A stretch of DNA of 42,303 bases from a virus (lineage: Duplodnaviria > Heunggongvirae > Uroviricota > Caudoviricetes): IMG/VR virus record IMGVR_UViG_2851976983_000005; one strand, given 5' to 3'. This document shows, in pieces, positions 30,501 to 33,500 of this stretch. The stretch's first letter is position 1. The number at the start of each line of letters is the position of its first letter. Position numbers: made by a program.

Positions 30501-33500
30501 ACCCGCATTCACAGTACGCGCCAAAAGCCAGCCCGACATTTACCGGAACCCCCAAAGCGCCAACGCCAGCGGCGGGGAATAATACCACGCAGGTTGCGAC
30601 CACTGCGTTTGTACAGGCGGCACTGACGGCCCTTATTAATGGTGCGCCAGCCACGCTGGACACGCTGAAAGAAATAGCCGCAGCCATTAACAATGATCCG
30701 AATTTCAGTACCACCATTAACAATGCGCTGGCACTAAAAGCACCGTTGTCGAGTCCGGCACTCACCGGAACGCCAACAGCCCCCACGGCGGCGCAGTCGG
30801 TCAACAATACACAGATTGCCACTACGGCTTTTGTGAAATCGGCGATTGCAGGAATGGTGGGTTCTGCACCTGCTGCACTGGATACACTGAACGAACTGGC
30901 GGCGGCACTGGGGAATGATCCGAACTTTGCCACGACAATGCTTAATGCGCTGGCAGGTAAACAACCGCTGGACAATACGCTTACCAATTTGAGTGGAAAG
31001 GATGTAGCTGGTCTTCTCACATACCTTGGTTTGGGAGAAGGCTCTGCATTAACTGTTGGTGTCCCTGTTCCGTGGCCTTCAGCCACTCCGCCAACAGGCT
31101 GGCTGAAATGCAATGGTGCGGCTTTTTCTGCTGAAGAATACCCGGAACTGGCAAAAGTTTACCCGACAAATTAATTGCCTGATTTACGTGGTGAGTTTAT
31201 TCGCGGCTGGGATGACGGAAGAGGAATTGATACTAACCGTAGCTTGCTTTCATCACAGGGCGATGCCATTCGAAATATAATTGGTGCATTAGTGGATGTC
31301 AGGTTTAATACCTATCCTTCTGATTCTGGTGCTTTTACAACCAGCGTCATCGGAGATGCTTCATCTGATTCAATTAAAGGTGGTTATGCAAAGCGAGTAA
31401 CATTTGATGCTTCCAGAGTTGTTCCAACTGCAAACGAAAACCGTCCGCGTAATATTGCATTTAACTATATCGTGAGGGCAGCCTGATGCATAAAGCAATA
31501 TTAAATAGTGAGCTTATTGCAACCAAGGCAGGGGATGTTACCGTTTATAACTACGATGGTGAAACACGGGAATATATTTCCACGTCAACTGAATATCTTG
31601 CTGTTGGTGTCGGTATTCCGGCATGTTCCTGTCTTGATGCACCTGGCATACATAAGGTTGGTTATGCTATCTGTCGTTCTGTGAATTTAAATTCATGGGA
31701 ATATGTGCCAGATCTTCGCGGTGAAATCGTCTATAGCACCGAAACAGGAGAATCGAAAGAAATCACAGCTCCGGGTGATTATCCTGAAAATACAACCACT
31801 ATCGCCCCGTTAACGCCATACGATGAATGGAATGGTGAGAAATGGGTGACAGATACCGAGGCACAGCACGGCGCAGCAGTAGATGCAGCAGAAGCACAGC
31901 GCCCGGTGCTGATTGATACTGCATGGCTCCACAGTTATTCAATGATTACGCCGACGGCTAGCAGGCAGAAACATCCGCCGCTGTGCTGGATCATTGACCG
32001 GTGACGGCAAAGATCCAGCACAGCGCCGGATGTATCTGCCTGACTGCCGAGGCGTAGGCCATTCAATATCTGGCGCCAGTATGATCAGCTCATGGCAGAT
32101 GCCATATGTGCAGTTCCTCATTCAGACGACCGATGCTGCTTTCCAGCCATTGCTTACCGTTCTGTATTCGTTCTGTCACTCATTTCTCATCAGCCCAGCA
32201 AGTTGCTTAACGGGGCGAAGTTTACCCAGGAAATCACCCAGCTGGATTTTACCTCAGAGCGTTTCCATGAAACCAGTCACCGCGATATTGGCCGTCTACC
32301 CATGAATTTAAATTCACAGTGACAAGATAAAAAGCATTTTGTCGGTGAATCAAGTCGACATTAATACCCACCCCCATATTCAGTTGAATTAGATTTCGTG
32401 TATGCGCAAGCGGCTTTGAATTTGACCCGGTCAACAATCGCTGCGCTAACAAAAGGGGCTCCATTAGTCGCGTAGATCACAGAATTGACCAGCGAAGGAT
32501 TGATGGAAAGGCAAGCATTAGGAAAGGCAACCGGCCATGAGTCATCAACAACGACCATATTACCGTCGGTAGATTGCGGCACTGATAGCGTCTTCCACTG
32601 AAGCAATGCTGTTCGTTGTACTCCACCAATTAATACTGGAATAGTGATGTTACCTGCACTGCTGGCTAATGCTGTCGCAGCAGGCATTTTCGCTGCTTCT
32701 CCCAAACCAACGTTTAAGAAAATGCAGAGGTAACAGCTAACTGGCATCATCTCCGGTTTTTATTCAGGGGGATGATCATGCTTATTGGCTATGTACGCGT
32801 GTCAACAAATGACCAGAACACCGATTTGCAACGTAATGCACTGAACTGCGCGGGATGTGAGCAGATTTTTGAGGACAAAATCAGTGGCACTAAGTCCGAC
32901 AGACCGGGGCTGAAAAAACTACTCAGGACACTATCGGCAGGAGACACGCTGGTTGTCTGGAAGCTGGACAGGTTGGGGCGCAGTATGCGGCATCTTGTTA
33001 CGCTGATAGAAGAGTTGCGCCAGCGTGGTGTGAATTTCAGAAGCCTGACTGACAGTATTGATACCAGTACCCCAATGGGCCGTTTCTTTTTTCATGTCAT
33101 GGGTGCCCTGGCTGAAATGGAACGCGAACTGATAGTTGAACGTACCAGGGCAGGGCTGGCTGCAGCTCGTGCCAAAGGCAGAGTAGGTGGACGCCGTCCT
33201 AAGTTGACCACCGAACAGTGGGCACAGATTGGGCGTTTACTCGAGGCCGGAGAATCAAGACAGCGTATTGCACTGATTTTTGATGTAGGCGTTTCTACCA
33301 TTTATAGAAAATTTCCGGCAAATAAGATCAATGAATCCCCCTGAATCAGCATTATGTTGATTATCCCTGCAAGCAGACAAATACCGTTATTTTGTGTGAA
33401 TAACGACACAACTGCGCTTAGCTGTTTGTCAGGCACAATCACTTCAACATAGGGCGAAGCCTAATCCAATCAGGAGGTTCGCCACTATGGCTCAGGATTA

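What the first reader, a model, noticed from the sequence alone, without database searches (positions are those of the whole stretch)
31166..31186. In-frame TAA inside the conserved YP...LPDLRG block of the tail-fibre gene
Seen in sequence: the fibre ORF ends ...EYPELAKVYPTN, then TAA (31172..31174), then the same frame continues LPDLRGEFIRGWDDGRG... to a typical NIAFNYIVRAA end. Established knowledge: in lambda Stf and Mu S-type fibres this block is contiguous (AYPSGVLPDMRG), so the stop replaces a sense codon. Inference: a nonsense mutation that removes the receptor-binding tip in this orientation. It could be rescued by segment inversion or a suppressor, and is another sign of prophage decay.
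Basis: partly seen in the sequence, partly recalled or inferred. Interest (0 to 1): 0.5.

Follow-up and report, generated by a model that had tools for sequence, protein, structure and literature searches.

The report
Likely assembly-error stop in fibre gene
The in-frame TAA is really in the sequence, but it lies inside a DNA segment that flips orientation and is visibly mis-assembled in this record, so it is most likely a sequencing or assembly error and not a biological loss of the phage tail-fibre tip.

Summary
TAA at 31172-31174 is in frame in a 1509-nt P2-type tail-fibre gene (29978-31486). It replaces AAA (Lys399), which all 26 homologous loci examined carry at that site.

The stop lies inside a Gin-type invertible segment. 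The crossover sites are at 31014-31039 and 32697-32722, and the invertase is at 32772-33344.

The prophage is otherwise base-for-base the same as the one in E. coli strains 503440 and 500465. Every substitution private to this window falls inside the invertible segment: five of them, all transversions. Four hit positions that do not vary even in homologs only 81% identical.

Right next to them, 31907-32382 is the intact sequence with 148 bases dropped in 87 separate deletions. It has no insertions and only 7 mismatches. Evolution does not produce that pattern; a failed consensus does.

An independent long-read assembly (L029) shows the same deletion-only damage, starting exactly at its crossover site.

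No public sequence searched carries the TAA allele.

Best reading, about 0.7: a consensus artefact in a region present in both orientations among the sequenced molecules. The main rival, about 0.2, is a genuine private nonsense mutation. Interest is low.

The parts
29978..31486 (+). P2 gpH-type tail-fibre gene in the current orientation: a constant part up to about 31027 fused to the variable C-terminus Sv. It is interrupted by the TAA.
   Evidence: ORFs of 398 aa plus 103 aa lie in one frame. Pfam finds PF12571 at residues 1-150 and Collar PF07484 at 361-408 of the intact homolog. The gene is the same length, 1509 nt, as the intact gp31 of phage 500465-1.
31172..31174 (+). In-frame TAA. It is AAA (Lys399) in every homolog examined.
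   Evidence: The allele is absent from E. coli complete genomes, from viral, genome and metagenome contigs, and from the gene-position index.
31014..31039 (.). Left 26-bp crossover site, TTCTCACATACC-TT-GGTTTGGGAGAA, inside the fibre ORF.
   Evidence: It is an inverted repeat with 32696-32722 (pair I3). It has the 12-2-12 layout of the Mu gix sites. Alignments to relatives break or flip here.
32697..32722 (.). Right 26-bp crossover site, TTCTCCCAAACC-AA-CGTTTAAGAAAA. Its core dinucleotide is inverted relative to the left site.
31052..31052 (+). Window-private substitution C to A (Pro to Thr in the conserved LPVG motif). It is the first of four further private substitutions; the others are at 31524 (synonymous), 31715 (His to Leu in Tfa) and 31906 (Leu to Val in Tfa).
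   Evidence: Searches list them. In one search, 31052, 31172, 31715 and 31906 are invariant in all homologs down to 81% identity. All five are transversions.
31486..32004 (+). Tail-fibre assembly gene U (Tfa) for the Sv tip. Its reading frame is lost after about residue 146 of 200, where it enters the corrupted stretch.
   Evidence: Pfam Caudo_TAP matches only profile positions 1-79 of 131. tblastn against the intact U is.
31907..32382 (.). Corrupted stretch: 476 nt that are a near-perfect subsequence of the intact 624 nt. It covers the end of U, all of U' and the last codons of Sv'.
   Evidence: 469 matches, 7 mismatches, 148 nt missing in 87 events, 0 insertions. The longest common subsequence is 469, against 351 +/- 3 for shuffles. 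No close match exists in 5426 E. coli genomes.
32361..32750 (-). Alternative fibre C-terminus Sv' (gp53-like C domain), fused to the constant part after inversion. Its last roughly 6 codons are altered by the corrupted stretch.
   Evidence: 96% identical to the intact Sv'. Weak PF21882 hit. In-silico inversion gives a 465-aa ORF. The flipped copy in E. coli 503440 encodes a 467-aa fibre.
32772..33344 (+). Serine DNA invertase of the Gin/Cin/Pin/Hin family, intact.
   Evidence: Pfam Resolvase plus HTH_7. E = 3e-93 against the Gin structure 3uj3. 140 of 188 residues are identical to Mu Gin, and the catalytic YVRVS motif is kept.

Best explanation
The TAA is most likely a base-calling or consensus error, not a mutation. 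It sits in a Gin-type invertible tail-fibre cassette of a P2-like prophage integrated at ssrA.

Such a cassette exists in both orientations among the molecules of a culture, or between tandem prophage copies. A long-read consensus built from that mixture loses support inside the cassette. In this record that produced a 476-nt stretch with a quarter of its bases dropped, plus five isolated wrong bases in the neighbouring 880 nt. One of those wrong bases turns Lys399 (AAA) into TAA.

Shown: the stop, its uniqueness, the cassette anatomy, the clustering of anomalies, and the deletion-only corruption. Inferred: that mixed orientation is the cause, and that the T at 31172 belongs to the same error class.
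For: 1. The window matches E. coli 503440 over 41.3 kb and phage 500465-1 over 31 kb. Every substitution private to the window lies between the two crossover sites. The only other substitution, at 39344, is private to 503440: the window agrees with 500465-1 there, and the window's gpD protein is a widespread variant.
2. Five substitutions in 879 nt against 1 in 39.6 kb outside gives Poisson P = 4e-11.
3. All five are transversions. Four hit positions that are invariant in every homolog down to 81% identity, and none of the four window alleles occurs in any homolog.
4. The adjoining 31907-32382 is the intact sequence minus 148 nt in 87 deletions, with 0 insertions and 7 mismatches. No evolutionary process gives this pattern.
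5. An independent assembly, L029 (GCA_900449035.1), shows the same damage. Its missing:extra bases are 35:0, 55:0 and 14:0 in three alignments to its nearest homologs. The damage begins at position 1697, right after its crossover site, and there are no gaps in the constant part.
6. Orientation mixing is real in this lineage. Strain 503440 carries two tandem copies with opposite orientations. Four other loci are flipped.
7. The TAA allele is found nowhere else.
Against: No reads are available, so the T cannot be checked directly.

The five isolated differences are clean substitutions. The demonstrably corrupted stretch shows almost only deletions, so the two may not share one error mode.

A simple simulation that aligned the flipped cassette to the unflipped one did not reproduce the five alleles.

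The sequencing platform of the source is unknown.

The prophage already has a disrupted replication gene, so a real inactivating mutation in a fibre gene would be tolerated.
Confidence: 0.7

Rival explanations
1. The TAA is a genuine, very recent private nonsense mutation (AAA to TAA). It truncates the fibre at residue 398 in the Sv orientation. Inversion to the Sv' orientation would restore a full-length fibre.
For: The sequence as given carries the stop. The frame and length of the gene are otherwise perfectly preserved, as expected for a single point mutation. The prophage is already defective because IS100 sits in gene A, so selection on the fibre is relaxed. In-silico inversion gives an open 465-aa fibre.
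Against: It would have to coincide with four other private transversions in 879 nt, while none occurs in the other 39.6 kb. It also lies beside a stretch that is certainly artefactual. The allele is absent from every collection searched.
Confidence: 0.2
2. All the anomalies are real: a segment-restricted mutational process, for example error-prone repair linked to invertase-made breaks, or conversion from an unknown divergent donor.
For: The anomalies are confined to the invertible segment.
Against: 87 deletions with no insertions and 7 mismatches is not a known mutational outcome. A second assembly shows the same pattern. The four non-synonymous window alleles occur in no homolog, so no donor is evident. 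The window contains no reverse transcriptase or template repeat that would suggest a diversity-generating retroelement (ORF list; annotation of the sister prophage).
Confidence: 0.03
3. The stop is programmed: it is read through or suppressed to make two fibre isoforms.
For: The downstream frame is intact for 103 codons.
Against: None of 26 homologs has a stop there. The window has no tRNA gene other than the tmRNA. The stop is TAA followed by T, which from established knowledge is the most efficient terminator context in E. coli.
Confidence: 0.01

Closest known systems
Phage Mu G segment with Gin invertase (also P1 C segment/Cin and e14 P segment/Pin)
   Same: A serine invertase 74% identical to Gin lies next to the segment. 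Two 26-bp sites in inverted orientation have the 12-2-12 layout, and the left site is inside the fibre ORF. The layout is a constant N-terminus fused to Sv-U or, after inversion, to Sv'-U'. Both orientations are seen in relatives. The function of the Mu G segment is taken from PMC3575834 and its references.
   Different: The host phage is P2-like (Peduoviridae, Wadgaonvirus), not Mu. The segment is about 1.8 kb against 3 kb in Mu. The crossover point is at codon ~350 of 502, against ~170 of 504 in Mu S. The half-sites match the gix half-sites at only 8 of 12 positions.
Escherichia phage 500465-1 (NC_049342) and the ssrA prophages of E. coli 503440 and 2011C-3911
   Same: It is the same prophage. 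It is identical over 31-41 kb apart from single-base indels in those records (apparently their own errors), and it includes the IS100 insertion.
   Different: Their invertible segment is intact: a 502-aa fibre with Lys399, a 200-aa U, a 147-aa U' and a 131-aa Sv'.
Tail-collar receptor-binding domains (T4 gp37 tip 2XGF, short tail fibre 9CUY)
   Same: The conserved block PxG...PW...YP.L...PD.RG..IRG aligns through the stop position. The Pfam Collar domain is present.
   Different: In this record the domain is cut at residue 398.

Membership tests
Gin/Cin/Pin/Hin-type invertible tail-fibre segment | An adjacent serine DNA invertase of the Gin family with the catalytic serine. | tested here: met
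   E = 3e-93 against the Gin structure 3uj3. 140 of 188 residues are identical to Mu Gin and the YVRVS motif is kept. Pfam Resolvase plus HTH_7.
Gin/Cin/Pin/Hin-type invertible tail-fibre segment | Two 26-bp crossover sites in inverted orientation with matching 2-bp cores. | tested here: met
   Sites at 31014-31039 (core TT) and 32697-32722 (core AA on the + strand). The inner half-sites are identical. The layout matches Mu gix.
Gin/Cin/Pin/Hin-type invertible tail-fibre segment | Inversion exchanges the C-terminus of the fibre and its assembly chaperone. | tested here: met
   The order is Sv-U on the + strand and Sv'-U' on the - strand. In-silico inversion gives a 465-aa ORF. The flipped copy in 503440 is annotated as a 467-aa fibre.
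Gin/Cin/Pin/Hin-type invertible tail-fibre segment | Both orientations are observed. | tested here: met
   L004 is unflipped and L005 flipped within one genome. L017, L024 and L026 are also flipped.
Gin/Cin/Pin/Hin-type invertible tail-fibre segment | A Fis-dependent recombinational enhancer within the 5' part of the invertase gene. | not tested
   Only 152 of 221 nt are identical to the start of Mu gin. No scan for Fis sites was made.
P2 gpH-type tail-collar fibre | An N-terminal Phage_tail_fib domain and a C-terminal Collar domain. | tested here: met
   PF12571 E = 8e-65. PF07484 is complete in the intact homolog and truncated at profile position 34 of 57 in the window.
Genuine nonsense pseudogene (prophage decay) | The mutant allele is reproducible in reads or in independent assemblies. 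| not testable with these tools
   No reads are available. The allele is absent from all collections searched.
Genuine nonsense pseudogene (prophage decay) | The surrounding sequence shows ordinary divergence, scattered and rich in transitions. | tested here: not met
   Five of five substitutions are transversions. They are clustered at P = 4e-11 beside a deletion-only corrupted stretch.
Programmed stop-codon readthrough or suppression | The stop is conserved in homologs. | tested here: not met
   None of 26 loci has it.
Programmed stop-codon readthrough or suppression | A suppressor tRNA is encoded nearby. | tested here: not met
   The window contains only the tmRNA gene.

The most novel reading that the evidence does not exclude
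The anomalies are real. In that case the invertible fibre cassette of this isolate has undergone mutagenesis restricted to the segment. The TAA would then make the Sv orientation a true OFF state, so that inversion acts as an ON/OFF switch instead of a host-range switch.
Probability: 0.03. Interest if true: 0.5.

Novelty: not a real feature. Interest (0 to 1): 0.1.

Why it matters
The main value is as a caution. Phase-variable (invertible) segments can be corrupted in otherwise excellent assemblies, and the result looks like pseudogenisation: a nonsense codon, frameshifted chaperone genes and orphan small ORFs. Scans that count prophage decay, or annotators that flag pseudogenes, will over-call inactivation at such loci. 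If the stop were real it would be an ordinary private nonsense mutation in an already defective prophage.

Tried and rejected
- Mosaic idea. I first read 32172-32387 as a mosaic containing reverse-complement pieces of U. A gap-tolerant global alignment showed the whole stretch is simply a subsequence of the intact sequence. The reverse-strand matches come from U/U' homology.
- Flipped-read simulation. Global alignment of the flipped cassette to the unflipped one under six scoring schemes did not reproduce the five window alleles. This is uninformative, because the aligner maximises matches.
- Exact-protein look-ups. The 398-aa and 172-aa products found nothing, so the source assembly is not in that collection.
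- gpD look-up. It did not narrow the source, because that variant is common. It did yield L029.
- Donor paralog. A donor for the SNPs is rejected: the four non-synonymous window alleles occur in no homolog, and no E. coli genome has the TAA 61-mer.
- Methylation-motif error. Only 31715 is adjacent to a GATC. The other sites are not at Dam or Dcm motifs (read directly from the sequence).
- Literature. A search for documented consensus corruption at invertible segments gave nothing specific.

Full report
**The observation**

The sequence reads ...GTT TAC CCG ACA AAT TAA TTG CCT GAT TTA CGT GGT..., with TAA at 31172-31174 in the frame of the ORF that starts at 29978. Upstream the product ends EYPELAKVYPTN. 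Downstream the same frame reads LPDLRGEFIRGWDDGRG...NIAFNYIVRAA, ending at the TGA at 31484-31486.

**What the gene is**

The ORF carries the Pfam domain Phage_tail_fib (PF12571, E = 8e-65) at residues 1-150. It also carries the Collar domain (PF07484) from residue 361. It sits in a P2-like late operon of baseplate J and I, fibre, sheath, tube, tape measure and D genes.

The prophage is bounded by a 45-bp direct repeat at 5391-5435 and 41244-41288. The right copy is the 3' end of the tmRNA gene.

The C-terminal 145 residues align to the T4 gp37 tip (2XGF) and to a short tail fibre (9CUY) straight through the stop position. Those proteins have Val at that position.

**The stop lies inside an invertible segment**

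An inverted repeat pairs 31014-31040 with 32696-32722. Read as 26-bp sites they are TTCTCACATACC-TT-GGTTTGGGAGAA and, on the other strand, TTTTCTTAAACG-TT-GGTTTGGGAGAA. This is the same 12-2-12 layout as the Mu gix sites.

Immediately to the right is an intact serine invertase at 32772-33344. It matches the Gin crystal structure at E = 3e-93 and is 74% identical to Mu Gin.

Between the sites lie four elements:
- Sv, the rest of the fibre;
- U, the Tfa chaperone, at 31486-32004;
- remnants of U' on the minus strand;
- Sv' on the minus strand, at 32361-32750.

This is the Mu, P1 and e14 arrangement (PMC3575834).

The inversion happens in nature. E. coli 503440 carries two tandem copies of this prophage with opposite orientations. 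Four further loci are flipped, with the junction at 31014-31040. Inverting the window's segment in silico gives an open 465-aa fibre.

**Comparison with sister prophages**

The window matches E. coli 503440 over 1-41288 and phage 500465-1 over 11315-42303. Outside the invertible segment the three records differ as follows:
- by single-base indels, each private to one of the other two records, several of which are annotated there as frameshifts;
- by one substitution at 39344, which is private to 503440.

Inside the segment the window alone differs. It has five substitutions:

| Position | Change |
|---|---|
| 31052 | C to A, Pro to Thr |
| 31172 | A to T, Lys to stop |
| 31524 | A to C, synonymous |
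| 31715 | A to T, His to Leu |
| 31906 | T to G, Leu to Val |

It also has a divergent block at 31907-32382.

Five substitutions in 879 nt, against one in 39.6 kb outside, has Poisson P = 4e-11. All five are transversions. The four non-synonymous ones hit positions that are invariant in every homolog down to 81% identity.

**The divergent block is a corruption**

A gap-tolerant global alignment shows that the window's 476 nt are the intact 624 nt with 148 bases removed in 87 separate events. There are no insertions and only 7 mismatches. The longest common subsequence is 469 of 476, against 351 +/- 3 for shuffled sequence. No E. coli complete genome has anything closer than about 73% over this block.

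Eighty-seven deletions with essentially no substitutions cannot arise by evolution. It is what a consensus caller produces when support for each base falls below its threshold.

The block destroys three things: the last 55 codons of U, all of U', and the last 6 codons of Sv'.

**An independent example**

L029 is another E. coli assembly carrying the same prophage family. It has a 426-aa fibre ORF followed by ORFs of 34, 36 and 42 aa. Against its nearest homologs it only lacks bases. In three alignments the missing:extra counts are 35:0, 55:0 and 14:0. The losses start at position 1697, just past its crossover site. Its constant part has no gaps at all. The phenomenon therefore recurs and is tied to the invertible segment.

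**Uniqueness of the TAA**

- The 35-mer with T at the site is absent from the viral, GTDB-genome and metagenome collections.
- With N at the site, the pattern finds 21 loci, and all have A. The 5 loci taken from annotated records also have A, giving the 26 in all.
- None of 1132 E. coli complete-genome records that match the 61-mer is identical to it.
- The 398-aa product is not on record.

**Interpretation**

The most economical account is that the source culture, or a collapsed tandem prophage pair like the one in 503440, contained both orientations. The consensus inside the cassette then degraded. The T at 31172 would be one of the resulting wrong bases. I put this at about 0.7.

The link between mixed orientation and the corruption is inferred, not shown. 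The isolated substitutions are a different error type from the deletions, and my crude flipped-read simulation did not reproduce them.

The main rival is a genuine private nonsense mutation, at about 0.2. It would be tolerated because IS100 already interrupts replication gene A in all three sister strains.

Programmed readthrough is excluded for practical purposes. No homolog has the stop, no suppressor tRNA is in the window, and the context TAA-T is a strong terminator in E. coli (established knowledge).

**Novelty**

The underlying system is a known kind: a Gin-family invertible fibre cassette in a P2-like prophage. Such cassettes are already annotated in related phages. Programmed inversions in tail-fibre genes have been catalogued systematically (PMC9881135). 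The stop itself is most likely not a biological feature. Interest is low. The practical lesson is that invertible segments can masquerade as decayed genes in assemblies.

Noticed in passing
window 31907-32382: A 476-nt stretch is a deletion-only corruption of the intact 624-nt sequence: 87 deletion events, 0 insertions, 7 mismatches. It destroys the end of U, all of U' and the last codons of Sv'. It begins within about 35 nt of the midpoint of the invertible segment.
   Followed up: yes
L029 1697-3470 (GCA_900449035.1, UGBV01000003.1): An independent E. coli assembly with the same kind of deletion-only damage. It starts exactly at the crossover site of its invertible fibre segment.
   Followed up: partly
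L004 and L005 (NZ_CP025881.1, 2437-2510 kb): E. coli 503440 carries two tandem copies of this prophage whose fibre segments are in opposite orientations. This is either a true dilysogen or an assembler resolving two orientation states as two copies.
   Followed up: partly
window 13565-15366: An IS100 element (istA and istB) is inserted in P2 replication gene A (11276-13555 plus a remnant). The insertion is shared with strains 503440 and 500465, so the prophage is genuinely defective for replication.
   Followed up: partly
window 16539-17972: A 477-aa cargo gene lies next to the portal gene. It is annotated in sister records as SEFIR or TIR domain-containing, and may be an anti-phage defence gene in a P2 variable region.
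   Followed up: no
window 5391-5435 and 41244-41288: An exact 45-bp direct repeat, equal to the 3' end of ssrA (tmRNA gene at 41244-41606, minus strand), marks the prophage ends. A second integrase gene (3996-5267) lies further left, which suggests another ssrA-associated island in tandem.
   Followed up: partly
L003 positions 1133-7952 (NC_049342.1): The 'phage' record 500465-1 has 24 single-base indels relative to the window and to strain 503440. These fragment its portal, terminase and IS100 genes in the annotation. The record also extends into host genes (smpB to ffh).
   Followed up: partly
L027, L032-L034, L036 (loci): The same prophage backbone carries quite different fibre cassettes in other genomes. 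Some have no invertase, and two have an acyltransferase gene in place of the invertible half. The position between gene I and the sheath gene is a swap hotspot.
   Followed up: no
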